From positions 1,931 to 65,930 of the forward strand of contig JBFMGK010000067.1 in assembly GCA_040752575.1 (NCBI GenBank): a stretch of DNA of 64,000 nt, read 5' to 3'. Under the pieces are notes generated by a model. It did not search any database. It had not been told where the DNA came from and worked only from the letters and a program-made list of their open reading frames with translations. Source of the stretch: Candidatus Bipolaricaulota bacterium (GTDB lineage: Bacteria > Bipolaricaulota > Bipolaricaulia > UBA7950 > UBA9294). A program made the translations under genes and the position numbers. Shown one piece after another: positions 5,079 through 22,126 of this stretch (within the stretch, counting starts at the first letter, position 1; every line of letters starts with the position of its first letter).

Positions 5079-6149
5079 CTAGGCACTCGCGTTCTTGCGC
5101 CGAACTCCAAGCGAAGCCTCGGACGTCCGGGCCGCCGGCCCCAGCCGGCGAATCTCGTCGTACCGTCTACACGCGACGAAGTGCCCGCCGCCGACGTCGA
5201 CGAGCGTCGGCTCTTCCTCTTCCCAGCATTCCCGTACCGCGTAGAGACAGCGCGGGTGGAAGCGACAGCCCGGCGGGATGTTCGTCGCGGCAGGGATCTC
5301 GCCCTTGATCGGCACATCCTTGTCTTGGTTCACGCGCCCGGCGACGGGCTCGCACACCGCGCCGATCAGCGCCTTCGTGTACGGGTGTAAGGCCTCATCG
5401 ATCACGGTGCCGCCGCGCCCCATCTCGATGATCCGCCCGAGGTACATCACGGCGAGCCGGTCGACGAAGTAGCGCGCCGTCGAGAGGTCGTGCGTAACGT
5501 AGATGTACGTGAGCCCCATCTCGCGCTGGAGTTGCTTCATCATGTAGAGAATCTCGGCTCGCGTCGAGAGGTCGATCATCGAGACCGGCTCGTCCGCGAC
5601 GATGATGCTCGGGTTGAGCATGAGCGTTCGAGCCGTCGCCGCACGTTGCCGCTGGCCTCCGCTCAGCATGTGCGGATGCCGCACGAGGAACTCGTCTGGA
5701 GGCGACAGCTTGACCTCCTGGAGGATCTCGCGCACCCACGCGTCGCGCTCGGACTCGGACTTGCCCACCTTATGGATCTCCAGCGGCTCCATGAGCACGT
5801 CGCGAATCGTGAACCGCGGGTTCATCGACGAGTACGGATCCTGGAAGATCATCTGGACATCTCGGCGGTGCTCGGCCAGCGCCGAACCGCGAACGTGCGT
5901 CGCGTCCCGCCCCTTCACCGTGAGCTTCCCGTCGGTGATCTCCAGGAGCTTCATAATGAGCTTGCCCGTCGTCGTCTTTCCGCAACCGGACTCGCCGACC
6001 AGGCCGAAGATTTCGCCCTTGTTGACCGAGAAGGAGACTCCGTCAACGGCGCGGACCCACGTGCGCTCGCCCCGCAGCACCTGCCGCAGAGACCGCTTCA
6101 CCGGGAACCACTTCGTCAGGTTCTCCACCGTCAAGATCGGCTCAGTCAT
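5079..6149 (-). CDS. oppF: oligopeptide/dipeptide ABC transporter ATP-binding protein (OppF/DppF-like)
   Basis: 356 aa. Walker A GESGCGKTT, ABC signature LSGGQRQR, Walker B ADEPVS. C-terminal Opp-type extension with CRFHPRC cysteine motif. Confidence 0.9.
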   Translation of the reverse strand: MTEPILTVENLTKWFPVKRSLRQVLRGERTWVRAVDGVSFSVNKGEIFGLVGESGCGKTTTGKLIMKLLEITDGKLTVKGRDATHVRGSALAEHRRDVQMIFQDPYSSMNPRFTIRDVLMEPLEIHKVGKSESERDAWVREILQEVKLSPPDEFLVRHPHMLSGGQRQRAATARTLMLNPSIIVADEPVSMIDLSTRAEILYMMKQLQREMGLTYIYVTHDLSTARYFVDRLAVMYLGRIIEMGRGGTVIDEALHPYTKALIGAVCEPVAGRVNQDKDVPIKGEIPAATNIPPGCRFHPRCLYAVRECWEEEEPTLVDVGGGHFVACRRYDEIRRLGPAARTSEASLGVRRKNASA

Positions 6150-7119
6150 GGAAGCACCTCCAACACGCGACCAGGTGATCGGGCTCGATCTCGCGCAGCA
6201 TGATGTCGTCGCGCGAGCACCGCTCCATCACGACCGCACAGCGCGGGTGGAAGCGACATCCCGTAGGCGGATCGACGAGATCCGGCGGGGTCCCCGGGAT
6301 GAACGCGAGTTCCGCAACCTCCTCGTGCAGTCGCGGGGTCGCGGCGAGGAGGCGTTGGGTGTAGGGGTGAGCTGGTCCCTGCGGACCGTAGATCTGGTCG
6401 TTGGTCCCCAGTTCGGCGATGCGTCCCGCGTACATCACCAGGATGCGGTCGGATACCTCGGCCTCGATGGACAGGTCGTGCGTGATGAAGATGAACGACA
6501 GCCCGAGCTCGGCCTTGAGGTCTTTGAGCAGATTGATGATCTGGGCCTGGACGACCACGTCCAGGGCCGTCGTCGGCTCGTCGCAGATCACGACCTTCGG
6601 CTCGAGGAAGAGCGCCATCGCGATGACGACGCGCTGCTTCATGCCGCCCGACAGCTCGTGCGGGTACCGCGACAGCACGTCGTCGGGTAGTCCGACGAGG
6701 TTGAGATACTGCTTCATGCGGCGTTCGATCTCCGGTTTCGGCATCTCGCGGTGCTGCAGGAGCGTCTCGCGCATCTGCTTGCGGATCGTGTACACCGGCG
6801 TGAGGCAGTTCATCGCGCCCTGGAAGACCATGGCCACGTTCTCCCAACGCACGCGCCGCCGGACCTCGTTCTCGGACAGCTTCAGGATGTCCTGGCCGTC
6901 GACCCGGATCTCGCCGCCGACGATCCGGCCCGGCGGAGTCGGCATCTTCAGAAGAGCGGTCCCCATCGTCGTTTTACCACATCCCGATTCGCCGACGACG
7001 CCCAGTGTTTCTCCGCGCCTCAAGAAGAAGGAGAGCTTGTCGACCGCCTTCACAACGCCCTTGCGGGTGAAGTAGTGCAGCTCGAGGTCCTTCACTTCGA
7101 GGACTCGTTCCTTCTCCAT
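6142..7119 (-). CDS. oppD: oligopeptide/dipeptide ABC transporter ATP-binding protein (OppD/DppD-like)
   Basis: 325 aa. GESGCGKTT, LSGGMKQR, ICDEPTTALD. C-terminal CRFHPRC motif. 8-nt overlap with oppF. Confidence 0.9.
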   Translation of the reverse strand: MEKERVLEVKDLELHYFTRKGVVKAVDKLSFFLRRGETLGVVGESGCGKTTMGTALLKMPTPPGRIVGGEIRVDGQDILKLSENEVRRRVRWENVAMVFQGAMNCLTPVYTIRKQMRETLLQHREMPKPEIERRMKQYLNLVGLPDDVLSRYPHELSGGMKQRVVIAMALFLEPKVVICDEPTTALDVVVQAQIINLLKDLKAELGLSFIFITHDLSIEAEVSDRILVMYAGRIAELGTNDQIYGPQGPAHPYTQRLLAATPRLHEEVAELAFIPGTPPDLVDPPTGCRFHPRCAVVMERCSRDDIMLREIEPDHLVACWRCFHD

Positions 7120-7122
7120 GAC

Positions 7123-8520
7123 CTACCTCGTTTTCAACCTTGGGTTCAGAATCGTATCCATTGCGAAGCCCATGAACGCGAACGTCATCCCCATGAACGC
7201 AATCGCAAGGCCCGGCGGCACGATCCACCACCAGATCCCTTGGAGAACCGCCCCGCTCGAGAACGCATCGAACAGGATCTGCCCCCACGTCACGACCGTC
7301 GCGTCGCCGAGGCCGATGAGGCTCACGCTGGCCTCGTAAGTGATCGCCCCAGGGACGGCAAGCGCCATCGAAGCGAACGCATAGGGAACGAGTTGCGGCA
7401 GCATGTGACGGAATAGAATCCGCCGATGGCTCGCGCCGAGGCCGTGTGCAGCCTCGATGTACGTATTCTCCTTGATCTGCAGCGCGATCGAACGCACCGT
7501 CTTCACCGGACCCGTCCAGAAGAACAGGCACATGAGCGCGATCATGAGCCAGATGCTGGGCTTGAACACGGCGCTCAACACGATAAGGATCGGGAGGAGC
7601 GGGATGTTCACCGCCACCTCGAAGACCCGGTTCATGAGGGCGTCGACCCAGCCGCCGAAGTAGCCCGAGGTCACGCCATAGATCACGCCAACGATCACCG
7701 AGATGAGCGACGTCAGCAACCCGATGATCAGCGCCCACTTCGTCCCGGCGATGAGCCCGCTCCAGAGGTCGCGCTTCTGGCCGTCGGTCCCGAGGAGCCC
7801 CGACACGCCACCGGCGACGATCAGCTCGGCCTTGTCGACCCGCGCCTCGTCGCTTGCCAGAGCCACTTGCAGGCGCAAGTGGTACGTCCCCTGCACAACC
7901 TCGGGATTCGTGAGCACTCCGGGTTTCGCTTCGCCGAACAGGATCGGAACGGCGTCGATCTGCTTCGGGTTCTTCGTCGCCGCGACGGCGGGATCGTCGG
8001 CCGAAGCCATCATCTGGAAGACGCGCTCGCGCAAGTTCTGGTCGATCGAGATGCGGAGTTCTTGCGCTCCCGTCGAGGTCGTCGACTTCTGGTACGTCAT
8101 GGACCGGCCGTCGGGACGCTCGACGAGAAGCGAGTACGTCACGCGGCCGGTGATCGTCATCTTGAGGACCAGGTCCTTCGGCGGCCGCCCGGCCTGGAAC
8201 GCATACGGAAAGTCCATGCTGACGATGCGCATCGTCCCAACCTGCGATTCGCTCAAGCCTTCGGGTTCAAGGACCTGCGACACGGCGTAGTCCTTGCCGG
8301 TGAACCAATTCACCCAGACGGGCAGCGCGTAGCGCGGGCCGTCGGCCCAGTACAGCATGTCCCGCCAACGCGAGTTCACCTCGCCGTACGAGAGCAGGAA
8401 CGGCTCGCACGCGACAATGAGCAGGAAGACGACGAACAGCGCCGCCCCCACCATGCCGAAGCGCACCTGCCGGAACTCCCGCAGCAGGGTCCGCAGTTGA
8501 GACCCTTGGTCGCGTCTCAT
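7123..8520 (-). CDS. oppC: oligopeptide ABC transporter permease (OppC/DppC-like)
   Basis: The ORF-track start at 8685 overlaps the upstream gene. The in-frame ATG at 8520 forms an ATGA overlap with the OppB stop. Long extracytoplasmic loop, then the conserved permease core with the EAA-like loop (IEAAHGLGAS). Confidence 0.85.
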   Translation of the reverse strand: MRRDQGSQLRTLLREFRQVRFGMVGAALFVVFLLIVACEPFLLSYGEVNSRWRDMLYWADGPRYALPVWVNWFTGKDYAVSQVLEPEGLSESQVGTMRIVSMDFPYAFQAGRPPKDLVLKMTITGRVTYSLLVERPDGRSMTYQKSTTSTGAQELRISIDQNLRERVFQMMASADDPAVAATKNPKQIDAVPILFGEAKPGVLTNPEVVQGTYHLRLQVALASDEARVDKAELIVAGGVSGLLGTDGQKRDLWSGLIAGTKWALIIGLLTSLISVIVGVIYGVTSGYFGGWVDALMNRVFEVAVNIPLLPILIVLSAVFKPSIWLMIALMCLFFWTGPVKTVRSIALQIKENTYIEAAHGLGASHRRILFRHMLPQLVPYAFASMALAVPGAITYEASVSLIGLGDATVVTWGQILFDAFSSGAVLQGIWWWIVPPGLAIAFMGMTFAFMGFAMDTILNPRLKTR

Positions 8521-9566
8521 GCCTTGCCTCCCACTTTCACGCGCGGGTCGAGGAACCCGTAGATCAGATCGAGAAACGCCAGCCCTAGGATGTAGAGCCC
8601 GGTCGTCAGCGAGAGGTTCCCCATCAAGACGGGAATGTCGTTCTGCTGCACCGACTGCCAGTACAGGCTGCCCATTCCGGGCCAACTGAAGATGCCCTCG
8701 AAGATGATCGCGCCGAAGATCGATCCGAGCAAACCGAGCACCGACATCGTGACGATCGGCGGCGCCGACGACCGCAAGGTGTGCCCGAACAGCACGCGCC
8801 GCTCAGAGATGCCGCGCGCGCGCGCCGACATGATGAAATCCTCCTGCAGCGTCCCAAGCACGATGTTGCGCGTGATGTAGGCGATGCCCCAGAAGCCGAG
8901 CACGACGAGCGTTGCGACGGGGAGGACCATGTGATAGAGCAGGTCGAGCGTGTAGGCGAATCCTTCCGGCGGCGGCGTCGAGTGCATCGACCCCGACGGG
9001 AAGATCGGCAGGACAAACGCGAACAGCATAATGAACAGCATCCCGAGCCACCACGCCGGCATCCCGAACACGACCATCGTCCCGATCGACGTCGTGCGGT
9101 CCATGAGTCCGCCGGCCTTGCGCGCCTTGCGCAGCCCGAGCCAGACCCCGAACACGATGTCGAACACCGAGACGGTCGCGAACAACAGCATCGTACGCGG
9201 AATGCGCTCGGTGACGATCCTCAGCACGTCCTGCTCACCGGTCATCGCCCGGATGATGGTCGATTGGCCGTAGCGGAAGGTGATCGTGTCGATGGCGCGC
9301 CAGAAAATGCGGCTCAACATCGGCTCGTCGAGGTGGTACATGGCCGTCAGCTCGGCGCGCCGGCTCTCCTGCCAGACGAGCAGGGCGTTCGGATCTCGAC
9401 CGATCGTGGTCTGAAGCGCCCGCGACTCGCCACGCACGATCTCGACGATCTGCGCCCGCATCGTGCGGTCGGCGACGGCGTTGAACAGGGCCGAGAAGAT
9501 GAACACGATGACTGCGAAGATCAGGAAGGCCCAAACCAAGCGGCGAACCGCGTACTTCCAGTACAT
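8517..9566 (-). CDS. oppB: oligopeptide ABC transporter permease (OppB/DppB-like)
   Basis: 349 aa. N-terminal TM followed by a periplasmic loop. Conserved permease motif region ARARGISERRVLFGHTLR. Confidence 0.9.
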   Translation of the reverse strand: MYWKYAVRRLVWAFLIFAVIVFIFSALFNAVADRTMRAQIVEIVRGESRALQTTIGRDPNALLVWQESRRAELTAMYHLDEPMLSRIFWRAIDTITFRYGQSTIIRAMTGEQDVLRIVTERIPRTMLLFATVSVFDIVFGVWLGLRKARKAGGLMDRTTSIGTMVVFGMPAWWLGMLFIMLFAFVLPIFPSGSMHSTPPPEGFAYTLDLLYHMVLPVATLVVLGFWGIAYITRNIVLGTLQEDFIMSARARGISERRVLFGHTLRSSAPPIVTMSVLGLLGSIFGAIIFEGIFSWPGMGSLYWQSVQQNDIPVLMGNLSLTTGLYILGLAFLDLIYGFLDPRVKVGGKA

Positions 9567-9700
9567 GGCGCTCCCATCTCCTTTCTGTCTCGTGCAACAA
9601 GGCGGGCGGTGCCGGCGCCAAGGCGCTTGACACCGCCCGCCCCCCTAATGCCTAGTCCTTCCTTGGGTCTCCGAGCCTGCGCTCGGCCGCCTCTCCAAGA

Positions 9701-12226
9701 CTACTGAAGCAGCAGCGTCGCGCCGGAGGCCGTCGGGAGGCCGCCGCCCGCGGGCTCGGCCACGGCGACGATGGTGTACGCGCCGCCACCCAGACCGGCC
9801 GTGACGGAGCCGGGAATGACCACTTCGAACTGCCCGGCCGACTTCAACGTCGCCACAATCGTCGTCTCGCCGGCGGGCCCGACAAAGATCAACGACACGG
9901 CGGCCTTCGTCGCCGGCTCAAACACGTCGTACGGATAGAGGCCCTCGCTCGCCAGGATCGTGATCGTCACGTTCTGGCCGGCTTGCGCCGCGAGCGGGGT
10001 GACGACGTCGTCGACGCGCGTCACGCCGGTCTCAAACTCGTCGAGCCAGTACTGCGCGCTCCACGGGTAGCTTGGGTCGCGGTTCGCCTTCAGCGAGATC
10101 TGGCTGTTCGCCGGATCCACCGAGTCGATGTAGTACGGGCCGTTCGAGATGTAGGCGTGGCCATGGGCATCGATGAAGTCGATCGCGCTCTGGTACATCG
10201 CGGCGAGATCGTCGGCCGTCGCCCCGACCTCGGGAAGGAGCGGCGCGAGATACACGGGCACGAACTTCTGGTCGCGCATCTCGACGAGCTTCGCGCGGAT
10301 GTCCGAGACGATCGAGCGGACGAGCACGTCCACCTGCGTCACGCCGGTGGCCTGGGTGAACCCGTAGACCGTCCCCGACTCGCCGCCCTCGGCGACGAGC
10401 TTGCCCAACGCCTCGATGATCGTCCACTTCACGCCCTGACCGTGGTTCGACGCCCGCGGCCAGAAGGTCGGCGCGCCGGACGCCCCGACGCGGTCGAGGT
10501 CGGGCGGGAAGTTGTTGTCAAAGTAGGTCGTGATCTTCGCGTTGGCGAAGTCCCACACCGAACCATGCGTATACGCAAAGCCGGGCAGAATGGCCGACGA
10601 GATCCCCGAGTCGAAGTACGGGTCGCCCTCGTAGTCCTCGACCGCCCAGTCGGTCAGGAACCCCTCGGCCTGCGCGAAGTCGAGCAGCGAGGTCTCGCTG
10701 CCATCGTGGAAATTCGCGAGCTGGAACGTGTAGTCGGCCTTCGCCCAGGCGGCTTCGCCGGCGGTCGAGACCCAGGCCTTAGCGGTCGAGTCCCACTCCA
10801 CGGCGTTCGCCGGGGCGGCGAGCTGGCCTACCGCCGTGCCGTCGTCGGCAAACTCGACGTCGACCACGACGTTGCTCCACGACGAGATCACGGGCGTGTA
10901 GGCCGCGGATCCCGGAGCGGTCGTCGTGTTCGGGTCGGTGGTGTTCGTGATGATGTTCGCCGCGTAGGCGTCGTTGAACCCCTGCGTCCCCACGGGATCC
11001 CAGGCGTTCAGGAACAGCGAGCCGCGCGCCGAGAACTGCGACACGACCACGGGTCGCGTCTTGTTTGTCGGGACCATCGAGATCATGGTGTCGCGGTTGA
11101 GCCCATCGCCGAGACCGTAGAGGAAGCGGGTCTCAAACGCGGCCTTGTTCGCGGCGTAGTACGCGAAGTCGTGCTGCTGGTAGATGCGGACGGCCTCGGT
11201 CAGTCCCGCGGCGACGGACTTGGACATGAGCTCCCAGTACTCGTCGACCGTCTCGAACTGCCCATAAATGATCGCCTGCGTCCACGCGTCGAGCTCGGGG
11301 TGCTGGTAGTTCCACCAGGAGCTCTCTCCGATGCCCGGCATGTTCGTGTACCACGGCGCGTACATCTGCACGACGTCGACGTCCTTCCACAGGGACGTGC
11401 CGCCGGCGAGCCACCCCTCGGTGTAGATGTTCCAGAGGTAGTCAGCCGGGTCGGTCAGGTAGACGTCGCTGATGCATCGAGTGCGGTCCACTTCGACGTT
11501 GTTCACGACGAAGCCCGCCTGGCGAAGCTGGTCAGCAATTCGCCGGCCCATCGGGAGACGGACGTTCGGATCGTCGACGCGGATGTAGAAGTTGATCTCG
11601 ACGGGCGCGCCGTCGAACGTCCAGATGCCGTCGCCGCCGCGGGCGAGCCGACCGACGTTCTCGGGCAGCGCCGCCGCCGCGTTCATCGCGTCGTCGATCA
11701 TCTGGTAGGCCTTCGCCTGGTCGCCTTCCGGCGTCAGGCCGAGCTTCTGCGCCTCGAGATAGAGCTTGAAGGCGCCCGGCTCGAAGCTGCCGACCGAAAT
11801 GATGGACGGGCTCCCCGCGCCCTGCATGATCTCCTCAACCATCTGCTGCCGGTTGAGCAGGAAGTGCAGCGCAAAGCGAAGCTCGCGAATCGCGAACGGG
11901 TTGAACTTCTCTTCGCCGCTCGTCGTCACGGCGATGTACGGCGCCGCGTTCGGATACGGGTTCAAGAACAGGCTCTCCGAGGACGCCGGAACGACGTACA
12001 GCTCGAGCTTGTCGAGCGTCGCCTGGTCGAGTCCGAAGATCACGCTTCCCGCGGTCGTGTACTGGAAGATGTCGATGTTGCCGGCCGCGACGTCCTGAAG
12101 GGCGATTTCCTCCTGCATGCGGACGTTGTACAGAATGCCGTCCGCGAAGGGGCCCACCTGGGCGAGGCCCAGGCCGCTCAGGGCGCCGACAAGAAGCACC
12201 ACGCTAAGTACACTGCGTAGCCTCAT
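9701..12226 (-). CDS. ABC transporter substrate-binding protein, family 5 (peptide/nickel type) with a ~250 aa C-terminal extension
   Basis: Start placed at MRLRSVLSVVLLVG (signal peptide), preceded by a GGGAGGA RBS 10 nt upstream. SBP_bac_5-like core. The extra C-terminal beta-rich domain ends ...GGGAYTIVAVAEPAGGG. Confidence 0.85.
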   Translation of the reverse strand: MRLRSVLSVVLLVGALSGLGLAQVGPFADGILYNVRMQEEIALQDVAAGNIDIFQYTTAGSVIFGLDQATLDKLELYVVPASSESLFLNPYPNAAPYIAVTTSGEEKFNPFAIRELRFALHFLLNRQQMVEEIMQGAGSPSIISVGSFEPGAFKLYLEAQKLGLTPEGDQAKAYQMIDDAMNAAAALPENVGRLARGGDGIWTFDGAPVEINFYIRVDDPNVRLPMGRRIADQLRQAGFVVNNVEVDRTRCISDVYLTDPADYLWNIYTEGWLAGGTSLWKDVDVVQMYAPWYTNMPGIGESSWWNYQHPELDAWTQAIIYGQFETVDEYWELMSKSVAAGLTEAVRIYQQHDFAYYAANKAAFETRFLYGLGDGLNRDTMISMVPTNKTRPVVVSQFSARGSLFLNAWDPVGTQGFNDAYAANIITNTTDPNTTTAPGSAAYTPVISSWSNVVVDVEFADDGTAVGQLAAPANAVEWDSTAKAWVSTAGEAAWAKADYTFQLANFHDGSETSLLDFAQAEGFLTDWAVEDYEGDPYFDSGISSAILPGFAYTHGSVWDFANAKITTYFDNNFPPDLDRVGASGAPTFWPRASNHGQGVKWTIIEALGKLVAEGGESGTVYGFTQATGVTQVDVLVRSIVSDIRAKLVEMRDQKFVPVYLAPLLPEVGATADDLAAMYQSAIDFIDAHGHAYISNGPYYIDSVDPANSQISLKANRDPSYPWSAQYWLDEFETGVTRVDDVVTPLAAQAGQNVTITILASEGLYPYDVFEPATKAAVSLIFVGPAGETTIVATLKSAGQFEVVIPGSVTAGLGGGAYTIVAVAEPAGGGLPTASGATLLLQ

Positions 12227-12326
12227 TGCTTTCTTTCCTCCCTTTCCTACTGCGTCACTACCCATCCGGCGTGCCTTGCGGCGGCCGCTCCGGCCCTCTC
12301 GGCTCCGGATCGGCCGCGAGGCGAGC

Positions 12327-12737
12327 CTAGAGGCCGGCGAAGACCGCCTGGTAAAGGGCGATCGGCTGCGCCCGGCGGGCCGCCAGTTTCACGATGACGA
12401 AGTCAAGGTAGCCAACCTCCACCGGAAGGTTGATGCGGTAGAAGTTGTTGGCCATCTGCGCCAAGTAGTCGGTGAGACCCGTGGCCACCACCGCGCCGCC
12501 CGAGTAGATCAAACACTCCGCGTCGACGATGTTGACCGGCGTGAAGGCCTCGACGATGAGGGTGTTGTACGAGACGCCCTCGTCCATGTTCACAATCAGG
12601 AGCCAGCCAACCGTTCCGTCGGACGTCGCCGTCCAGAGGACGTTCGTCGCCTCGAAGAACGGGACAGCCCCTGCCGTCAACGCCCCTCCGACGAGCAGCG
12701 CCGACGCGAGCAGGACAACCATGCCCAGCTTCTTCAT
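12327..12737 (-). CDS. small secreted hypothetical protein (136 aa), first gene of Opp operon 2
   Basis: Start MKKLGMVVLLASALLVGGALTAGA (signal peptide), with an AAGGAGG RBS 10 nt upstream. The longer ORF-track start has no RBS. No recognisable domain. Confidence 0.5.
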   Translation of the reverse strand: MKKLGMVVLLASALLVGGALTAGAVPFFEATNVLWTATSDGTVGWLLIVNMDEGVSYNTLIVEAFTPVNIVDAECLIYSGGAVVATGLTDYLAQMANNFYRINLPVEVGYLDFVIVKLAARRAQPIALYQAVFAGL

Positions 12738-12819
12738 TCCTACGGAGCCTCCTTTTCTCTGCTCCCAAAAACAAAACCGGCGTCCACCAAGGGAGAATGG
12801 TTCTCCCGGTTCGCGCCGC

Positions 12820-12846
12820 CCTAGTGGAGAGTCAATCGGCATTATA
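12820..12846 (-). promoter_or_regulatory. conserved promoter/leader element of Opp operon 2 (minus-strand TATAAT plus CTCTCCACTAGG box)
   Basis: Plus-strand CCTAGTGGAGAGTCAATCGGCATTATA. On the minus strand this reads TATAAT-N6-TGACTCTCCACTAGG. A candidate -35 TTGCCT lies 16 nt upstream. The site is ~90 nt upstream of the operon's first ATG and nearly identical to the site at 19963–19987. Confidence 0.55.
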
Positions 12847-12901
12847 CGGAGAACGCTCGTCAAGGCAAGCCTTGCCTGCAGAAGAAGGTCCGGGACGGGT
12901 A

Positions 12902-14093: not shown

Positions 14094-14103
14094 GGTCTCC
14101 GCC

Positions 14104-15069
14104 TCACACGTGTAGCCAGCACTTGACCCAGCGATCGCCGCCCACATCGACAAACGGCGGTTCCGCATCGCACTTCTCGAACCTCGACGGACAGCGCACG
14201 GCGAATCGGCACCCCGTGGGCGGATTCAGCAGGCTCGGCGGCTGACCCGGAATAAACTCGAGCTTCTTGTCCTCGCGCAGCGTCGGCACACTGGCCATCA
14301 GTTTGCGCGAATACGGGTGCAGCGGCGTCCGGAAGAAGTCGGTCGCGTCGGACAGCTCGACGAGTTGCCCGGCGTACATGACGGCCGCCCGATCGGCCAA
14401 CTCGCTTGACGTCGCGATGTCGTGCGTGATGAGAATGAACGTCACGCCAAGATCGTGCTTGATGCCCTTGAGGACGTTCATGATGTTCGTCTGCGTCAGG
14501 ACGTCGAGCGCGCTCGTCGGCTCGTCGAGAAAGACGATGTCCGGCCGCGTGACGAGCGCCATCGCGAGAACGGCCCGTTGCCTCATCCCGCCGGAGAGCT
14601 CGAACGGATAGCGGTCGAGGAAGTCCTTGGAGACCCCAACCAGGCGGAACACCTCTTCGGCCTGGTTGTGGGCGTCCTTCTTGCTCGCGGACAGCCCATG
14701 AACGCGCAGCGGCTCGGCCACCTGGTCCCCCACCTTGATCACCGGGTTGAGCGAGTTCATCGCCGCCTGGGAGACCAGCGACATCTTGACCCAGCGAACC
14801 TGCCGCCGGAAGGCCTCCTCGCCGAGCGTCATCACATCGGTCCCATTAAGCCAGATGCGCCCGCTGAACGTGTGCACGTTCCGCGGGAGCAGACGCAGGA
14901 TCGCCCGCGACAGCGTGCTCTTCCCGCACCCCGACTCTCCGACGACAACCGTCGCCGGTCCGCGCTGCATCTCGAAGCTGACGCCGTCGACCGCCTGAAC
15001 CGGGCCCTTCCCCGTGCGAAAGTGAAGCTTCAGATCCTCGACGCGAAGTACTTTCTCTGGTTTCGCCAT
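14104..15069 (-). CDS. oppD: oligopeptide ABC transporter ATP-binding protein (OppD-like), operon 1
   Basis: GESGCGKST, LSGGMRQR, LDEPTSALD. C-terminal CRFAVRC motif. Confidence 0.9.
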   Translation of the reverse strand: MAKPEKVLRVEDLKLHFRTGKGPVQAVDGVSFEMQRGPATVVVGESGCGKSTLSRAILRLLPRNVHTFSGRIWLNGTDVMTLGEEAFRRQVRWVKMSLVSQAAMNSLNPVIKVGDQVAEPLRVHGLSASKKDAHNQAEEVFRLVGVSKDFLDRYPFELSGGMRQRAVLAMALVTRPDIVFLDEPTSALDVLTQTNIMNVLKGIKHDLGVTFILITHDIATSSELADRAAVMYAGQLVELSDATDFFRTPLHPYSRKLMASVPTLREDKKLEFIPGQPPSLLNPPTGCRFAVRCPSRFEKCDAEPPFVDVGGDRWVKCWLHV

Positions 15070-16429: not shown

Positions 16430-17517
16430 GCCGACCGCCCTCCTCCTGCGACGCGTACCCGGGGATCGACGATCGCGTAGATGAAGTCGAGCAGAAAGAC
16501 CGTGAGCGCCAGGAGATAGCCGAAGATGACGAGCGTGCCGACGATCACCGGCGTGTCGTTCAGGTTCACGGCCGTCAGGTACTGCCGGCCGAGGCCGGGC
16601 CAGTTGAATACGGTTTCCAGGATGATCTGGCCCATCCACGTACCGATGAGCATAAGCATGAAGCTCGTGATGATCGTCGGGAGCGTCGGACGCAAGATAT
16701 ACTGCCGCTGGATCGCCCGCGACGAGAGCCCCTTGGCCTTCGCCAGTTCGACGTAGTCCTCGCTCGAGTAGATCAAGAAGAACGTCCGCCACGTGTAGGC
16801 GCTCGCGAAGAAGACCGAAATCGTGATCGACAGCACCGGCAGGATCATGTGGTGGAGGAGGCTCACCGCGTACTCCAGGACGTTGTCAGGCGGCGGCGCC
16901 TTGACCATCCCCCCCCACGGCAAGATCCGAAAGACCGCCGCAAACAGCAAGATCAGGAAGATGCCGTAGAACCAGCCCGGCGCGGCCGAGAGCGGCGCCA
17001 GGCCGACGATCGTTTTGTCGAGCGTGCTGCCGTAGCGGCGCGAAAGGAACAGGGCCGTCACGATCGCGCTGAAGAAGAGGAGGAGATTGGCGGTGGCAAA
17101 GAGCAGAAGCGTTGGGGCCAGGCGTTCCCCGAGGATCCGCCGGACTTCTCTCGAGCCGCTGTCGCTCGAGATGTTCTCGGAGCGTCCGAGATTCAGGGTG
17201 ATCGCCGTTGTGAGGTAGTCCACGCTGCGGATCCAGAACGAACGGTCAAGCCCATAGCGGCGGAACTGCACGACACACAGGTCGTCGATCAGCTTCCTCA
17301 GCGTCGCCGGGTCGAGGCCCTGGTTCTCGGGGTTCATGTACACGGCCGTCGCGACGTTCAGGCGGATCTCTGACCGCCTGACCTCGTCGAGGCGTCCGCC
17401 CATGTTGGCGATGAGGATCACCAAGTAGAGGCCGACCACCAGCGTGATCAGCAGCGCGATCGCCTTTAGGGCAAGGTGCCGCGCCATCCTCCAGGCGTTC
17501 CCACTCATGGTCACCAC
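16426..17517 (-). CDS. oppB: oligopeptide ABC transporter permease (OppB-like), operon 1
   Basis: 363 aa, OppB-like topology. Motif AKAKGLSSRAIQRQYILR. The start may be the internal Met near 17487. Confidence 0.85.
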   Translation of the reverse strand: MVTMSGNAWRMARHLALKAIALLITLVVGLYLVILIANMGGRLDEVRRSEIRLNVATAVYMNPENQGLDPATLRKLIDDLCVVQFRRYGLDRSFWIRSVDYLTTAITLNLGRSENISSDSGSREVRRILGERLAPTLLLFATANLLLFFSAIVTALFLSRRYGSTLDKTIVGLAPLSAAPGWFYGIFLILLFAAVFRILPWGGMVKAPPPDNVLEYAVSLLHHMILPVLSITISVFFASAYTWRTFFLIYSSEDYVELAKAKGLSSRAIQRQYILRPTLPTIITSFMLMLIGTWMGQIILETVFNWPGLGRQYLTAVNLNDTPVIVGTLVIFGYLLALTVFLLDFIYAIVDPRVRVAGGGRSA

Positions 17518-17651
17518 TCACTCCTCTCGCGTCGGCGCCGACGTCGCGCCGGCGGGAAGAAGACGGGGGACCGCTGCCGGCCCTGGCCTTCAGCGATCCC
17601 CCAACCGCACGCTACCGAACGCTGTAGCCTTACATGTTAGGCCTGCAGCGC

Positions 17652-19829
17652 TTACGGACGTTCGTCAATGAGCCGCTGCCACTGGTCCGCCGGGTAGGGA
17701 TAGTCCGCAAACCGCTTAAGGACGATGACCTTCTCGGTCGGGAAAGCCTGTTCAAGGTAGAACTTCCCGCTCGCGACCCAGAAGTGCCCCATGTCCGCGT
17801 ACCAGTTGTCGAGCAACGTCCAGCGGTTCACGGCTTCGGACAGCGACAGGTAGTCCGCCATCGTCGGCTCGTATGGCCGGTAGCCCGTGCTCAGGCAGTC
17901 CAACAGCTGATCGTGCAGGATCTCCAGCGAAGGGCCGGCGATGTAGTTCGCCCACTCCACGCCAAGCGCCTGCGCCTTGTCGCTCGAGAACGCGAGCAGC
18001 TTCTTCTCCTCGGCGAGGATTCCGAGGGTCACCGTGTGCCAGAAGCCGGGGCCCTGGCTGTAATACGGGAACCAATCGGAAACGCCATTCTCGGCATCGA
18101 GCGTGACCAGATCCGAGTAGGTCTCGATGATCAGCGGATCCCTCGACACGATCTTGACGCCGCGGAAGGCGCTCATGAACGACTCGAACGCGCCGACCTG
18201 GGCCTCGTCGTAGATCTTGCTCTCGGGTTTCGCTTGGTCGAAGCTCATGATGATCCCAAGCACGAAGTCGGCGATCGAGATCTTCGACCCGTCGTGAAGC
18301 GGCGTGTCGTAGAGACTCGACGGATAGTAGACAACCGACTTACGCTTCGCCGTCACGCCGTCAGGGTACTTCTCGGCGACGGTGATGAACTTCTGCGCCG
18401 CCGCGTCCCAGTCTGCCCATGCATCGCTCGGAACCTGGATGACGTCCTGGAACTTCAGCGTGCACCACGACGCCCCATCCGAGACCCCGACAGGGAGCCC
18501 GGTCTGGATCGTGATCTCGGCGCGATCGAAGTGCAGCGGCCAGATCAGACCCGTGTTCACATCCATGACGTACCCGGTCTCACCGGTCCCGCGGATCGGG
18601 AGCATGTCGTACGTCCAGTTCGAGCCGGCCACCGGGTTCCACGGCTCGACGAGCAACGTCGATGTGGCCATGTCCAGCGACCCGCCGACCTGCGGATTCC
18701 CGTCCGCCCCCTCGAAGTAGATGGCCTGGGCCCACGACTGCGAGCCGTACACGCCCCCCGCGAGGTCCGCCGCCGCCTGGACGCCCTTCCGGAATGGCGT
18801 GAAGCCGGTCCGGTCGACGAGCCAGATCATGTTCGCGAACTGGTTGCAGCCCCAGAGGGCTTCCTCGAACAGGTCCGCGCGCTCGTCCATCGTCGCATAG
18901 TCGCGGTTGTAGAGCTTGTCCAACGTGACCCAAAGCCCCGGAGAGACGGCATCGGCCATCTCCTCGGTGAGGTACTGGAACAGAGGCCACGGCAGGATGC
19001 GGTTCGTGTGGAACTGGTTGAAGCCCGTTCCCTGATCGCGCGAGATGGCCGTGGTCACCCATCCGCCCGTGTAGAAGTGCCATTGGCCATCCGTCGGGTC
19101 GGAGCTAATCCAGATCGGCGACGCCTCGCGGCTGATCCGGTACAAGCGCTGCGTCGTGAATCCGACTTCCTCGAGCAAGCCGCAGACGTAGTCGCCGATC
19201 AACCGGCGCTCGTCCTCGGTTCGAATCACGGCGATGATCTCGACGTTCTGCCCGTTGTACTGCCACTTCCCGCCGACAAGCGTCGCGCCGAGGTCGGTCA
19301 TGACGGTCGTCATCGCGGCTTCGGCCTTGTCGGGGTCGTTTGCGTAGTAGTCCGCGATCTCGTCCATGACCTCGCGATACCGCACTGCGTCGGCGAACGC
19401 CGAGTTCAGGTACGAATACTTCGGGACGGCCATGCCACCCATGATCTCGTTCGCGATGTACTCGCGATCGATGAGCCAGTGCACGGCCTCACGGAACGCG
19501 GGAACGGCAAACGGGTTCAGCCGTCCGTCGTTGAAGACGGGTCCCGCGGGGTTGAACGTGAGGTCGTTGAACGAGCCGTACGACATCACGTAGTCGAGGT
19601 TCGCGCTCGCCTGGACCTGGCCGAACAACGCCCGGTCGCCGATAGAAAACGCGTAGAGGTCGATGTCTCCTGCCTCAAGCTTCAGAATCGCTGCGCCGGT
19701 GCTGGGTTCCTCGGTGAACGTCACCTGGTCCAGCCACGCGCCGTTGTGCGCCGCAACGCTGGCCCCCACGGCCAGGATTCCGATGAGGAGGAGGCCGATC
19801 CACTTTGGCCAGCTTCCCTTCTGCATCAT
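17652..19829 (-). CDS. ABC transporter substrate-binding protein, family 5, N-terminally anchored
   Basis: 725 aa. N-terminal signal/anchor MMQKGSWPKWIGLLLIGILAVGASVAA. GCAGGAGGTG RBS 8 nt upstream. SBP_bac_5-like core. Confidence 0.85.
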   Translation of the reverse strand: MMQKGSWPKWIGLLLIGILAVGASVAAHNGAWLDQVTFTEEPSTGAAILKLEAGDIDLYAFSIGDRALFGQVQASANLDYVMSYGSFNDLTFNPAGPVFNDGRLNPFAVPAFREAVHWLIDREYIANEIMGGMAVPKYSYLNSAFADAVRYREVMDEIADYYANDPDKAEAAMTTVMTDLGATLVGGKWQYNGQNVEIIAVIRTEDERRLIGDYVCGLLEEVGFTTQRLYRISREASPIWISSDPTDGQWHFYTGGWVTTAISRDQGTGFNQFHTNRILPWPLFQYLTEEMADAVSPGLWVTLDKLYNRDYATMDERADLFEEALWGCNQFANMIWLVDRTGFTPFRKGVQAAADLAGGVYGSQSWAQAIYFEGADGNPQVGGSLDMATSTLLVEPWNPVAGSNWTYDMLPIRGTGETGYVMDVNTGLIWPLHFDRAEITIQTGLPVGVSDGASWCTLKFQDVIQVPSDAWADWDAAAQKFITVAEKYPDGVTAKRKSVVYYPSSLYDTPLHDGSKISIADFVLGIIMSFDQAKPESKIYDEAQVGAFESFMSAFRGVKIVSRDPLIIETYSDLVTLDAENGVSDWFPYYSQGPGFWHTVTLGILAEEKKLLAFSSDKAQALGVEWANYIAGPSLEILHDQLLDCLSTGYRPYEPTMADYLSLSEAVNRWTLLDNWYADMGHFWVASGKFYLEQAFPTEKVIVLKRFADYPYPADQWQRLIDERP

Positions 19830-19962
19830 CTACAAAGCACCTCCTGCAAACCTACGGAGCTTCCGCAGTCTAGCAGTCCCGCCCGAGTTCGACGCTCCCT
19901 CTGTCGGTATCCGACAGAGAAGAGGACGATGGCTCTTTGGACGCCGACCTTCGTCCTTGCAG

Positions 19963-20010
19963 CCTAGTGGAGAGTCGATCGATTATAGCCGTCGCCTACA
20001 AGGGTGACAA
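19963..20010 (-). promoter_or_regulatory. conserved promoter/leader element of Opp operon 1 (TTGTCA-N17-TATAAT plus CTCTCCACTAGG box)
   Basis: Plus-strand CCTAGTGGAGAGTCGATCGATTATA...TGACAA. On the minus strand this gives TTGTCA-N17-TATAAT followed by CGATCGACTCTCCACTAGG, ~135 nt upstream of the SBP start. Confidence 0.6.
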
Positions 20011-20175
20011 GACCCGGGAGCGCCAAATCCCCGTTCAGCTCTGCAGACCGTCACACCCCATGCAGCGTCTTCCAGAGCCTCGGCGCGAGGCCGTCTCGGC
20101 GCGTAGGCTTGGCGGCGAGAAGGGGCGTAGCTATACTCGTTCCCACGGGACGTTTCGCAGCGGGAGCACGGACCC

Positions 20176-20436
20176 ATGGAGAACCTCAAGGTCGCCTCGG
20201 GGAGCAATCCTAACTCGGTATCGGGAGCCATCGTCGCATCGCTCGAGCAGTGTGACGTGGTCCAGATTCACGCCGTGGGGGCAGGAGCCGTCAATCAGGC
20301 TGTGAAGGCCATCGCCATTGCGCGCCGCGCGCTAGAGCGTCCGGGCGATCGCCCGTTGCGCGTCGTACCGGGGTTCGTCGACCTTTCGATCGACGGAGAA
20401 ACGAAGACCGCCGTGCGGCTGTTCGTCGAGCGGTAG
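20176..20436 (+). CDS. spoVS: stage V sporulation protein S homolog (SpoVS family)
   Basis: 86 aa. MENLKVASGSNPNSVSGAIV...IHAVGAGAVNQAVKAIAIAR...DGETKTAVRLFVE aligns along the full length with the SpoVS family (KVSxxSxPNSVAGA, IGAGAxNQAVKAxAIAR). Confidence 0.85.
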   Translation: MENLKVASGSNPNSVSGAIVASLEQCDVVQIHAVGAGAVNQAVKAIAIARRALERPGDRPLRVVPGFVDLSIDGETKTAVRLFVER

Positions 20437-20452
20437 GCCGCGATCGCGTATC

Positions 20453-22126
20453 ATGCCCGCCATGGCCGCCCCACGGGACACCTATCTGGAAGGTCTTGTG
20501 CGCGATGCGCTGTTGGACGCCTATCGTGGGCTTCGCGGCGTCGAGCCGACCGTCTACTCCGATGTCCGCCCGAGCGAACGACCGGAGTTCGGCGACTACG
20601 CCACGAATCTCGCGATGCTCGCCGCCAAGCACGAGGGCCTGGCGCCTCGCCCGCTTGCCGAGGCGTTGACGGCAGAGCTGGCCGAGCGAGCGAGCGAGTC
20701 GGGACTTCGCGCCGAGGTCGCCGGCCCGGGGTTCATCAACGTGTTTCTCTCCTCGCACCACCTGCATAACGCCCTCCGGGGAATGCTCGGTGCGGGTCCG
20801 AGCTACGGAGCCTCCGCCCTGGGAGGGGGCCGCCGCGTTCAGGTGGAGTTCGTCAGCTCGAACCCGACGGGCCCGCTCACCGTCGGCCACGGACGCCAGG
20901 CCGTCCTAGGCGACGTGCTGGCCTCGCTCTACGGCGAACTGGGCTACGACGTCGAGCGCGAGTACTACTTCAACGACGAGGGGCGGCAGGTCGATCTGCT
21001 CGCCGAGTCGCTCTGGATTCGCTACCGCGAGCTGTTCGGCGAGGCGCGCGAGATCCCCGAGGGCGGCTACCAAGGCGAGTACCTCAAGGATCTGGCGGCC
21101 GCCGTCCGCGACGCCCTCGGCGACGGATTCGAGACGTTCGACGAGAAGGCGCGCAAGGCCTTCCGTGATGAGGTCGTGGCCCGGATCAGCGAAGGCATTC
21201 GTAGGGATCTTCACGCGCTGGGCATTGCGTTCGATCGCTTCTTTAGCGAGGCGACGCTCCACCGCGAAGGCAAGGTCGACGCGGCGCTCGGCCTTCTGCG
21301 GACCCGCGGGGCGGTGTACGAGCGCGACGGCGCCGTGTGGCTGCGCGCCGAGCACGTCCGAGGCGGGAAGGACTCGGTGCTTGTCCGCAGCGATGGCCGG
21401 CCGACATACCTGCTCGTCGACATCGCCTACCACCTCGACAAGCGGGAACGCGGACTCGACCTCGTCATCGACGTGCAGGGCGCCGATCACGTGACAGAGC
21501 AGGCCTGCATGAAGGCCGCCGCGGGAGCCCTGGGGTTCCCCGAGGGGTTTCTGAACTACGCTGTGCACCAGTTTGTGAGCTTGAAGCGAGGCGGCGTCGT
21601 CCAGAGGATGTCGACGCGTGCGGGGCGTTTCGTGACCCTGCGGGATCTCTTGGACGAAGTCGGACCGGACATGGTTCGCTACTTCATGATCTCGAAGAAG
21701 CCCGAGGCGCATCTGGACTTCGACCTCGACCTCGCCAAGAGCCAGTCGCTCGACAACCCGGCAACGACGATCCAGTACGCCCACACTCGACTCGCCTCGC
21801 TGTTCCGCAAAGCCGGACGACTCGCCGACGAGCTGGATGCGGCCGACCTCGCGCCGCTGACCTCGGCCGACGACGTCGCGCTGATCAAGGCGCTGGATCG
21901 CTTTCCCAAGATCGTGTGGACGGCTGCCGAGGCCTTCGGACCCCATCTCCTTGCGGAGTACGCGCTGGACCTCGCTCGGACCTCTCACGGGTACTACGAC
22001 CGAAACCGCGTGCTCGGCGAGCCCGAAGCGGTGGGCCGTGCCCGGCTCGCCCTGCTTCGGGTAACTCGCGGAGTCCTCCACAAGTCGCTTGGGCTCCTCG
22101 GGATGGTCGCCCCGGAGGAGATGTAA
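20453..22126 (+). CDS. argS: arginine--tRNA ligase
   Basis: 557 aa. Class I motif SSNPTGPLTVGHGR, MSTR (KMSKS-like) motif and C-terminal DALR-type anticodon-binding domain. Confidence 0.9.
   Translation: MPAMAAPRDTYLEGLVRDALLDAYRGLRGVEPTVYSDVRPSERPEFGDYATNLAMLAAKHEGLAPRPLAEALTAELAERASESGLRAEVAGPGFINVFLSSHHLHNALRGMLGAGPSYGASALGGGRRVQVEFVSSNPTGPLTVGHGRQAVLGDVLASLYGELGYDVEREYYFNDEGRQVDLLAESLWIRYRELFGEAREIPEGGYQGEYLKDLAAAVRDALGDGFETFDEKARKAFRDEVVARISEGIRRDLHALGIAFDRFFSEATLHREGKVDAALGLLRTRGAVYERDGAVWLRAEHVRGGKDSVLVRSDGRPTYLLVDIAYHLDKRERGLDLVIDVQGADHVTEQACMKAAAGALGFPEGFLNYAVHQFVSLKRGGVVQRMSTRAGRFVTLRDLLDEVGPDMVRYFMISKKPEAHLDFDLDLAKSQSLDNPATTIQYAHTRLASLFRKAGRLADELDAADLAPLTSADDVALIKALDRFPKIVWTAAEAFGPHLLAEYALDLARTSHGYYDRNRVLGEPEAVGRARLALLRVTRGVLHKSLGLLGMVAPEEM

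What the first reader, a model, noticed from the sequence alone, without database searches (positions are those of the whole stretch)
19963..20010. Conserved promoter/leader module (site 2) with near-consensus sigma-70-like promoter
TTGTCA-N17-TATAAT on the minus strand is followed by CGATCGACTCTCCACTAGG. Together with site 1 this defines a ~27-nt conserved element: TATAAT, a 6–8 nt spacer, then GACTCTCCACTAGG. The -35 and spacer are better conserved here than at site 1 (TTGCCT-N16). The two paralogous operons may differ in basal strength while sharing the operator/leader.
Basis: seen in the sequence. Interest (0 to 1): 0.5.

Follow-up and report, generated by a model that had tools for sequence, protein, structure and literature searches.

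The report
Promoter plus conserved transporter leader box
This is a strong, ordinary-type bacterial promoter followed at once by a 12-letter sequence that an uncultured phylum (Bipolaricaulota) keeps at the start of several nutrient-importer operons, which marks an undescribed shared control site whose partner is unknown.

Summary
On the minus strand, TTGTCA-N17-TATAAT (20010-19982, 11 of 12 to consensus) is followed 5 nt later by GACTCTCCACTAGG (19976-19963). The same 14-mer follows TTGCCT-N16-TATAAT at site 1 (12868-12820). These are the only two sigma-70-like matches of at least 10/12 in the 64-kb window.

Each heads a family-5 (Opp/Dpp-type) ABC importer operon of a Candidatus Bipolaricaulota MAG. 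The two binding proteins are only 26% identical, so the shared box is not leftover paralogy.

The core TCCACTAG recurs 7-11 nt after the -10 element in orthologous operons, down to about 54% protein identity, while the flanks diverge. It occurs in 7 of 10 lineages, against at most 4 in 500 shuffles. There is no Rfam match and no paper.

So this is a real promoter plus an undescribed, phylum-restricted cis-regulatory box at the start of a leader of about 150 nt.

The mechanism is not shown. The box is a contiguous, asymmetric 12-mer with transition-only variation, and a second box-like copy lies near the ribosome-binding site. These features favour recognition in the transcript by a shared trans factor (antisense RNA or RNA-binding protein). 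A DNA operator at +1 is a close rival. A simple cis anti-Shine-Dalgarno clamp is not supported for this window. It is ordinary in kind and new in sequence.

The parts
20005..20010 (-). -35 hexamer TTGTCA of the site 2 promoter.
   Evidence: The form TTGTCN is shared by nearly all box-bearing orthologous promoters.
19982..19987 (-). -10 hexamer TATAAT, 17 nt after the -35 hexamer.
   Evidence: 11 of 12 matches to consensus.
19975..19976 (-). Predicted transcription start (G19976 or A19975, the 6th or 7th nt after the -10 element).
   Evidence: Inferred from standard sigma-70 promoter geometry. No transcript data are available.
19963..19976 (-). Conserved box GACTCTCCACTAGG. The core CTCTCCACTAG is the phylum-wide part.
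19939..19948 (-). 5' strand (GTCGGCGTCC) of a candidate long-range leader helix.
   Evidence: RNAalifold and pair counts: 82% of cells paired. Changes on one side only keep pairing (U-A/U-G/C-G, G-U/G-C).
19899..19919 (-). Internal hairpin CTCTGTCGG-ATA-CCGACAGAG. This region varies between lineages.
19868..19880 (-). 3' strand (GGGACTGCTAGAC) of the candidate long-range helix. It contains TGCTAGACT (19875-19867), which looks like an extended -10 element.
   Evidence: The same 9-mer is the actual -10 region of L017, L020 and L021.
19851..19859 (-). Second, box-like element CTCCGTAGG, part of the block GGAAGCTCCGTAGG shared with site 1.
19838..19844 (-). Shine-Dalgarno sequence GGAGGTG.
   Evidence: It is invariant in alignments A3-A6.
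17652..19829 (-). First gene of operon 2: a 725-aa family-5 solute-binding protein. It is followed by two permeases (16426-17517, about 15071-16792) and two ATPases (14104-15069, 13071-14168).
12820..12868 (-). Site 1: TTGCCT-N16-TATAAT-GCCGATT-GACTCTCCACTAGG.
12767..12820 (-). Site 1 leader hairpin followed by TTTTGTTTTT (terminator-like).
12739..12752 (-). Site 1 ribosome-binding region GGAGG-CTCCGTAGG. The start codon is at 12737-12735.
   Evidence: It is conserved in the orthologues L171 and L172.
5079..12737 (-). Operon 1: a 136-aa secreted small protein (12327-12737), an 841/854-aa family-5 binding protein (9701-12265), two permeases and two ATPases.

Best explanation
Site 2 is the main sigma-70-type promoter of a five-gene oligopeptide/oligosaccharide-type (family 5) ABC importer operon in a Candidatus Bipolaricaulota genome. 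Transcription is predicted to start 6-7 nt after TATAAT. The conserved box (G)ACUCUCCACUAGG would then be the first 14 or so nucleotides of a 5' leader of about 150 nt.

The box is a cis-regulatory recognition site that this phylum keeps at the head of several paralogous binding-protein-led importer operons, so it defines a small regulon. I think it most likely acts in the transcript. A shared trans-acting partner would recognise the box by contiguous base pairing or single-strand reading. That partner could be an antisense small RNA carrying about CCUAGUGGAGAG, or a sequence-specific RNA-binding protein. In this genome the partner would also recognise the second, box-like copy CUCCGUAGG next to the ribosome-binding site. 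It would thereby set translation and/or stability of the importer mRNAs.

Shown: the promoter consensus, the position, conservation and specificity of the box, and the absence of any known family.

Inferred: the start site, action at the RNA level, and the existence of the partner.
For: Promoter:
- The sites score 11/12 and 10/12 and are the only such sites in 64 kb.
- Every orthologue has TTGNCN-N17-TANNNT just upstream of the box.

Selection on the box:
- The two window binding proteins are only 26% identical, yet the boxes are 19/20 identical.
- The box survives in orthologues at 77, 72, 70, 60, 55 and 54% protein identity while neighbouring bases diverge.
- TCCACTAG is in 7 of 10 lineages, against at most 4 in 500 shuffles.
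- The weight matrix hits nothing else in 2.2 Mb.
- Other promoter-like sites in the window lack the box.

Action in the transcript:
- In the 11 lineages with a clear promoter the box lies 7-11 nt after the -10 element, and about 27 nt after it in L004/L089. It is therefore always downstream of the predicted start and always in one orientation.
- It is a contiguous invariant run of 11-12 nt with no dyad or direct-repeat symmetry. That is the pattern of base pairing or single-strand recognition, not of a dimeric DNA binder.
- All four substitutions inside the core are C-to-U or A-to-G (L004, L171, L017, L175). These changes would keep pairing with an unchanged partner through G-U.
- A second copy, CU[C/G]CGUAG, lies 10-39 nt before the start codon in 6 of 13 leaders, against 0.04 expected (the pattern was defined after seeing it). 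In site 1 and its orthologues this copy sits between the Shine-Dalgarno sequence and AUG.
- The site 2-type leader also shows signs of conserved RNA structure. Folding z is -2.2. A long-range helix and a pre-SD hairpin have 89% of cells paired, against 35-54% in slid controls, with 13/500 shuffles reaching the covariation score.

No Rfam family matches in the window or in 19 orthologous loci.
Against: - No partner was found. The complement of the box, G-U pairs allowed, occurs nowhere else in the window or in 179 loci except as coding-region noise. Only 64 kb of this genome was available, however.
- The transition-only pattern rests on four events and also fits ordinary mutation bias.
- Three features point to the DNA level. 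The identity between sites 1 and 2 extends into CGAT, upstream of the predicted start. The box sits exactly where classical operators sit (+1 to +15). Box-bearing promoters share an unusual -35 form, TTGTCN, while box-less promoters of the same gene family have TTGACN.
- The orthologous sites are inherited, not independent, so constancy of position and orientation carries little weight.
- There are no transcript data for the start site.
Confidence: 0.4

Rival explanations
1. The box is a DNA operator. A transcription factor, probably a repressor, sits on +1 to +15 and blocks open-complex formation or promoter escape at all importer operons of the regulon. The downstream box-like copy would serve as an auxiliary operator, allowing looping.
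For: - The position overlaps the predicted start, which is the classical repressor location.
- The site 1/site 2 identity extends into the untranscribed CGAT between the -10 element and the start.
- There is a strict association with the -35 variant TTGTCN, against TTGACN in box-less promoters.
- The two box copies are 113 bp (site 2) and 82 bp (site 1, and L171) apart. These distances differ by about 3 helical turns.
- The element is specific to one class of operons.
Against: - There is no dyad or direct-repeat symmetry. The conserved part is one contiguous 11-12-mer, longer than a single DNA-reading head contacts.
- No regulator gene is conserved next to these operons in the window, L001, L004, L016, L017, L171 or L175.
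- The distance to the -10 element drifts by up to half a helical turn (7-11 nt), and is about 27 nt in L004/L089.
Confidence: 0.3
2. The box acts purely in cis, with no trans factor. It would be a 5'-terminal C/U-rich strand (CUCUCC is anti-Shine-Dalgarno-like) that pairs with the ribosome-binding site or another G-rich stretch. That pairing would clamp the leader shut and either mask translation initiation or protect the 5' end from decay.
For: - RNAalifold closes the leader with ACuCUCC:GGAGGU.
- The C-to-U variants keep that pairing.
- Forcing the four CUCC:GGAG pairs costs only 0-1.7 kcal/mol at 60 C in all 11 leaders.
- The predicted probability of this helix is 0.6-0.99 in L001, L016, L018 and L175.
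- At site 1 the box can pair with the 3' half of the terminator-like hairpin.
Against: - For the window's own two leaders the predicted probability is 0.00-0.05. It is near 0 in L017, L170, L004 and L171 as well.
- Only L001 exceeds interior-shuffled controls.
- The best box-to-leader duplex is never better than in shuffled leaders (z from -1.1 to +1.9).
- The helix never varies, so there is no covariation.
- Pairing with GGAG explains CUCC but not the equally invariant ACUAG.
Confidence: 0.12
3. The box is read as single-stranded non-template DNA by the transcription machinery. It would be either an ops-like loading site for a specialised NusG-family antiterminator of these long operons, or a sigma-dependent promoter-proximal pause. 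The basis for the pause idea is that TAGGNT resembles this lineage's -10 elements TAGACT and TAGAAT.
For: - It is a 12-nt, asymmetric, orientation-fixed, near-invariant element in the leader of 5-6-gene operons, as ops is (known from RfaH biology; my own knowledge).
- The 3' half reads TAGGCT, TAGGGT, TAGAGT or TAGATT in 7 of 13 sequences.
Against: - There is no resemblance to the ops consensus GGCGGTAGnnTG.
- The only JUMPstart hit is elsewhere (17608-17624) and at chance level (17.4 bits against a gathering score of 35).
- The last T of the -10-like hexamer is missing at site 1 and in L017, L170, L171, L172 and L175.
- The box is at +1 to +14, before sigma release and before a stable elongation complex exists.
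Confidence: 0.05
4. The box has no regulatory role. It would be part of a favourable initially transcribed sequence of a strong promoter, copied between the two operons by gene conversion.
For: - Within this genome the two sites share more (19/20 plus 13/14) than the cross-species core does, which could reflect conversion.
Against: - Conversion inside one genome cannot explain retention of the same core in at least ten lineages and in two anciently diverged operon types.
- Strong box-less promoters of the same gene family exist in the phylum.
Confidence: 0.05

Closest known systems
sRNA target sites in the 5' leaders of binding-protein mRNAs, such as the GcvB regulon (oppA, dppA and others) of enterobacteria.
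   Same: A short, G-poor sequence in the 5' leaders of several ABC-importer binding-protein mRNAs, including family-5 Opp/Dpp types. It is shared across paralogous operons and can lie well upstream of the ribosome-binding site (my knowledge of GcvB; the box data are).
   Different: No small RNA has been found here. The sequence is unrelated to the C/A-rich GcvB targets. The box sits at the very 5' end. The phylum is unrelated.
Two-site translational repression by an RNA-binding protein (CsrA/RsmA type).
   Same: Two similar short motifs in one leader, one upstream and one at or next to the Shine-Dalgarno sequence.
   Different: The motif is CUCC(A)(C/G)UAGG, not A(N)GGA in hairpin loops. No binding protein is known. 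The second copy is present in only about half of the leaders.
Classical repressor operators overlapping +1 (lac O1 type).
   Same: The position spans the transcription start. There is a second similar site about 80-110 bp downstream. One motif is shared by a set of transporter operons.
   Different: The box has no dyad symmetry and is a single contiguous 12-mer. No regulator gene is linked.
ops / JUMPstart elements that recruit RfaH.
   Same: About 12 nt long, asymmetric, orientation-dependent and almost invariant, in the leaders of long operons.
   Different: The sequence is different. There is no significant Rfam JUMPstart hit at the box. The box is too close to the start site.
STAB-SD 5' mRNA stabilisers (Bacillus cryIIIA type).
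   Same: A conserved element at the extreme 5' end of a long leader of a highly expressed gene. Sister operons in the same phylum do carry an SD-like GAGGGGGUGAGA near the 5' end.
   Different: The window's box is the opposite sense (C/U-rich, anti-SD-like), not an SD mimic.

Membership tests
Sigma-70 (housekeeping) promoter | A -35 hexamer close to TTGACA and a -10 hexamer close to TATAAT, separated by 16-18 nt. | tested here: met
   TTGTCA-N17-TATAAT scores 11/12. It is one of only two sites with at least 10/12 in 64 kb. The same architecture is present in all orthologues.
Sigma-70 (housekeeping) promoter | Transcription actually starts 5-9 nt downstream of the -10 element. | not testable with these tools
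   No transcriptome or 5'-end data exist for this MAG.
Any described RNA family (Rfam 15) | A covariance-model score at or above the family's gathering threshold. | tested here: not met
   There were no hits at gathering threshold in the window or in 19 orthologous loci. No hit with E up to 10 overlaps either leader.
Riboswitch | A conserved aptamer fold supported by covariation. | tested here: inconclusive
   The site 2-type leader has a candidate long-range helix and a pre-SD hairpin. 89% of cells are paired and 2 pairs have double changes, but this rests on only 6-7 sequences and 13/500 shuffles reach the score. A model built from it finds no members beyond the known leaders. Site 1 shares only the box, not this fold.
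Riboswitch | A ligand and a ligand-dependent expression platform. | not testable with these tools
   No ligand can be inferred. The transported substrate of these binding proteins is unknown.
Dimeric transcription-factor operator | Dyad or direct-repeat symmetry of two half-sites. | tested here: not met
   Inspection of the box and flanks in 12 lineages shows only the central CTAG to be self-complementary. The arms do not match.
Dimeric transcription-factor operator | A cognate DNA-binding protein. | not testable with these tools
   No linked regulator gene is seen in any locus.
ops / JUMPstart | The consensus GGCGGTAGnnTG in the leader. | tested here: not met
   The box is CTCTCCACTAGG. The only JUMPstart hit lies at 17608-17624, with 17.4 bits against a gathering score of 35 and E of 6.3.
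Cis anti-Shine-Dalgarno clamp | Predicted, lineage-consistent pairing of the element with the ribosome-binding site. | tested here: not met
   The probability is 0.00-0.05 for both window leaders and high in only 4 of 10 lineages. Duplexes are no better than in shuffles.
Intrinsic-terminator attenuator | A G+C-rich hairpin followed by a U-tract between the promoter and the first gene. | tested here: not met
   This feature is absent from the site 2 leader. It is present only at site 1 (12820-12767), so it cannot be the shared function of the box.
sRNA target site | A complementary trans-encoded RNA. | tested here: inconclusive
   None was found in the 64-kb window or in 179 loci. The rest of the genome could not be searched.

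The most novel reading that the evidence does not exclude
The box, together with the second box-like copy at the ribosome-binding site, is the address label of a so-far unknown post-transcriptional regulon in Bipolaricaulota. One small RNA or RNA-binding protein would co-ordinate all family-5 binding-protein importer operons, as a functional analogue of GcvB or CsrA evolved independently in an uncultured phylum. The structured site 2-type leader of about 150 nt would add a second, possibly ligand-sensing, layer.
Probability: 0.25. Interest if true: 0.6.

Novelty: new member of a known kind. Interest (0 to 1): 0.4.

Why it matters
Bipolaricaulota (Acetothermia, OP1) have no cultured, genetically tractable member, and nothing is known about how they regulate genes. 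Binding-protein-dependent importers are their main route for taking up organic substrates.

A phylum-wide 12-nt signature at the head of these operons gives a concrete handle. It allows the regulon to be listed by motif search in complete genomes. It tells where transcripts should start in metatranscriptomes. It also provides a bait sequence for finding the regulator, whether RNA or protein.

The promoter comparison gives a first empirical picture of housekeeping promoters in this phylum: TTGNCN-N17-TA(G/T)A(C/A)T, often with an upstream TGC.

If the box turns out to be only an operator for an ordinary repressor, the finding is routine.

Tried and rejected
- **Known RNA families.** Three Rfam searches found nothing.
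- **Literature.** Searches on Bipolaricaulota/Acetothermia plus riboswitch or promoter, and on the box sequence itself, returned only unrelated primer hits.
- **Cis pairing of the box with its own leader.** RNAduplex against dinucleotide shuffles and pairing probabilities with interior-shuffled controls gave no consistent signal.
- **A consistent partner for the ACUAG half.** I looked by eye and by folding. The partner differs in every lineage: the SD flank in L001, UGGAGA in L018, AUGGUG in L170, GUGGAGG in L004 and a terminator half at site 1. I rejected this as a conserved helix.
- **A 5' hairpin presenting the box in its loop.** This holds for L016, L018 and weakly L001, but not for the window sites, L017 or L170.
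- **A loose motif, [CT]TCC-N0-3-TAG[GA], as a repeated genome-wide element.** There were 19 hits against 22.7 expected, so it is not enriched.
- **The third 14-mer-like match, at 60723-60736 (2 mismatches).** It lies at the end of a GntR gene and is unrelated.
- **A leader peptide or stop codon reading of the TAG in the box.** There is no conserved upstream reading frame or start codon.
- **The box as the real -10 element, or as a sigma-28-type site (GCCGAT).** No matching -35 element exists at the right distance.
- **A covariance model of the site 2-type leader.** It recovers only the known leaders, plus weak box-driven hits at site 1, L170, L004 and L171.
- **Search for a complementary RNA gene.** None was found in the DNA available.

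Full report
**What is in the sequence**

On the minus strand the window reads TTGTCA (20010-20005), 17 nt, TATAAT (19987-19982), CGATC, GACTCTCCACTAGG (19976-19963). A leader of about 135 nt follows, then the Shine-Dalgarno sequence GGAGGTG (19844-19838) and the start codon at 19829.

Site 1 reads TTGCCT-N16-TATAAT-GCCGATT-GACTCTCCACTAGG (12868-12820). The consensus scan scores the two sites 11/12 and 10/12. A scan of the entire window on both strands finds no other site with at least 10/12.

The 14-mer is exact at both sites and occurs nowhere else. The identity in fact spans CGAT[C/T]GACTCTCCACTAGG, 19 of 20.

A second shared block, GGA[A/G]GCTCCGTAGG, lies just before both start codons (19864-19851 and 12752-12739).

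**Context**

The window comes from a Candidatus Bipolaricaulota MAG. The window's own binding protein is found at 100% identity.

Site 2 heads five minus-strand genes: a 725-aa family-5 solute-binding protein, two permeases and two ATPases. Site 1 heads a 136-aa secreted protein without Pfam match, an 841/854-aa family-5 binding protein, two permeases and two ATPases.

Upstream of site 2, spoVS and argS are transcribed divergently. The two binding proteins share only 26% identity over 272 residues. The operons are therefore ancient paralogues, and a 19/20 match in their leaders cannot be residual ancestry.

**Conservation elsewhere**

I fetched orthologous loci by exact-protein look-up and by protein-pattern scans of genome and metagenome collections.

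In orthologues of the site 2 operon the box follows a sigma-70-like promoter every time:

| Locus | Protein identity | Sequence after the -35/N17 |
|---|---|---|
| L001 | 77% | TAGAAT-gaggttttga-CTCTCCACTAGG |
| L016, L177 | about 54% | TAGACT-N10-CTCTCCACTAGG |
| L017 | not separately given | TAGACT-N11-CTCTCCATTAGG |
| L018 | 54% | TAGACT-N10-CTCTCCACTAGA |
| L170 | 55% | TACAAT-N8-CTCTCCACTAGC |
| L004, L089 (low-GC lineage) | 72% | CTTTCCACTAGA, about 27 nt after the -10 element |

Orthologues of the site 1 operon carry CTCTCTACTAGA (L171, L172; 70%) and TCTCCGCTAGA (L175; 60%), again 7-9 nt after TATAAT or TATACT.

Flanking bases differ freely. Mean column identity of the leaders is 54-57%, while the box columns are invariant.

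TCCACTAG is present in 7 of 10 independent lineages' upstream regions. In 500 dinucleotide shuffles no 8-mer was shared by more than 4. A weight matrix of the box scores 15 bits or more only at these promoters in 2.2 Mb. The weaker promoter-like sites elsewhere in the window lack the box.

The box is therefore under selection and is specific to binding-protein-led family-5 importer operons of this phylum.

**Not a known element**

Rfam gives nothing at gathering thresholds in the window or in 19 orthologous loci. No hit up to E = 10 overlaps either leader. Full-text searches find no description of it.

**How it might work: what I tested**

*(a) Cis anti-Shine-Dalgarno clamp.* RNAalifold closes the site 2-type leader with ACuCUCC:GGAGGU. 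Forcing CUCC:GGAG costs at most 1.7 kcal/mol at 60 C in all leaders.

The predicted probability of this helix, however, is 0.00-0.05 for both window leaders and is high in only 4 of 10 lineages. Only L001 beats interior-shuffled controls. The best duplex between the box and its own leader is never better than in shuffled leaders (z from -1.1 to +1.9). The helix is invariant, so it offers no covariation.

Pairing with GGAG also does not explain the equally conserved ACUAG. I rate this model low.

*(b) Structured leader.* The site 2-type leader folds better than shuffles (z = -2.2). It shows a candidate long-range helix (19948-19939 with 19880-19868) and a small hairpin abutting the SD.

The long-range helix keeps pairing through changes on one side (U-A/U-G/C-G; G-U/G-C), and two pairs of the small hairpin change on both sides. 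89% of cells are paired, against 35-54% in slid controls, and 13/500 shuffles reach the covariation score. With 6-7 sequences this is only suggestive.

A covariance model finds no members beyond the known leaders. Site 1 does not share this fold, so it is not what the box itself does.

*(c) Attenuation.* Site 1 has a hairpin followed by TTTTGTTTTT (12820-12767), and the box can pair with its 3' half. Site 2 has no terminator, and the site 1 orthologues lack a clean U-tract. This is an operon-specific add-on.

*(d) DNA operator.* The position over +1 fits. So does the extension of identity into the untranscribed CGAT. So does a striking link with the -35 form.

On the -35 form: 11 of 12 box-bearing promoters have TTG(T/C)CN, while 14 box-less promoters of the same gene family have TTGACN.

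Against it, the box has no dyad or repeat symmetry. It is one contiguous 11-12-mer, and no regulator gene is linked in any locus.

*(e) Recognition in the transcript by a trans factor.* The following favour this:
- The contiguous, asymmetric and invariant nature of the box.
- Its constant placement downstream of the predicted start.
- All four core substitutions are C-to-U or A-to-G, which is compatible with G-U pairing.
- The second box-like copy near the ribosome-binding site occurs in 6 of 13 leaders, against 0.04 expected. That motif was defined after the fact, and the orthologues are not independent.

No complementary sequence exists in the DNA I could search, but that is only 64 kb of this genome.

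**Verdict**

The promoter call and the reality of a conserved, operon-class-specific cis element are well supported; I put about 0.85-0.9 on that part. The mechanism is not settled.

| Model | Probability |
|---|---|
| Transcript-level recognition by a shared small RNA or RNA-binding protein | about 0.4 |
| Conventional operator at +1 | about 0.3 |
| Cis clamp or 5' protection | about 0.12 |
| Non-template-strand or pause element | about 0.05 |
| No regulatory role | about 0.05 |
| Unassigned | the remainder |

In kind this is an ordinary promoter-plus-regulatory-site module. What is new is the motif itself and its restriction to an uncultured phylum.

Noticed in passing
Window 12767-12820 (minus strand).: The site 1 leader contains a long imperfect hairpin followed by TTTTGTTTTT, which looks like an intrinsic terminator between promoter and first gene. 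The box (UCCACUAGG) can pair with its 3' half (CCCUUGGUGGA), which would make an antiterminator. The orthologues L171 and L172 keep a hairpin with compensatory changes but lack a clean U-tract.
   Followed up: partly
Window 19867-19875 (minus strand); L004 about 3935-3965; L017 2811-2821.: TGCTAGACT inside the site 2 leader is identical to the true extended -10 region of orthologous promoters (L017, L020, L021). In L004 and L089 it is preceded by TTGACT-N17, giving a full second, proximal promoter. The same stretch is the 3' strand of the candidate long-range helix.
   Followed up: partly
Window 20005-20010 and 12863-12868; loci L001, L016-L018, L170-L172, L175, L177 versus L006, L007, L012, L013, L019-L022, L090-L092, L095, L098, L168.: Box-bearing promoters have the -35 hexamer TTGTCN (TTGCCT at site 1) with a 17-nt spacer. 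Box-less promoters of the same binding-protein family in the same phylum have TTGACN. The exception is L004/L089, which has TTGACA.
   Followed up: partly
L007 2440-2465; L012 about 85-115; L013 about 1285-1320; L092 135-165; L098 about 925-950; L168 1400-1440.: A sister class of Bipolaricaulota importer operons (small secreted ORF plus a 712-aa binding protein) has an invariant SD-like GAGGGGGTGAGA without a start codon, 20-35 nt after the -10 element. It is often paired with an upstream (G)ATTCCACTCC. This resembles 5' STAB-SD stabilisers and may be evolutionarily related to the box, since both share TCCACT.
   Followed up: partly
Window 60734-60809 (plus strand).: There are two tandem 41-nt copies, 97% identical, each containing the inverted repeat GCGGCAG...CTGCCGC. 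They lie between a GntR/FCD regulator gene (59960-60727) and an amino-acid (carbamate-type) kinase gene starting at 60822, which is followed by two OTCase/ATCase paralogues. They are probably tandem operators of the adjacent regulator. As RNA the region does not fold better than shuffles (z = +0.9).
   Followed up: partly
Window 20109-20137 (plus strand) and 20176-22126.: spoVS (86 aa, PF04232) and argS are transcribed divergently from operon 2, from a promoter-like TTGGCG-N17-TATACT. The argS/spoVS neighbourhood is conserved next to either importer operon type in other lineages (L004, L175, L176).
   Followed up: partly
Window 12327-12737 (minus strand); also L007 2551-2949, L171 1938-2342, L175 1963-2361.: A small secreted protein of about 132-136 aa with no Pfam match is the first gene of operon 1 and of many related operons, always directly upstream of the binding-protein gene.
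   Followed up: no
Window 17608-17624 (minus strand).: There is a weak JUMPstart (ops-containing) Rfam hit between the binding-protein gene and the first permease gene of operon 2. It scores 17.4 bits against a gathering score of 35, with E of 6.3, which is chance level.
   Followed up: no
Window 28771-31485 (minus strand).: A branched-chain-amino-acid-type ABC transporter (two BPD_transp_2 permeases and an ATPase) lies nearby. Neither the box nor a strong promoter-like site is associated with it.
   Followed up: no
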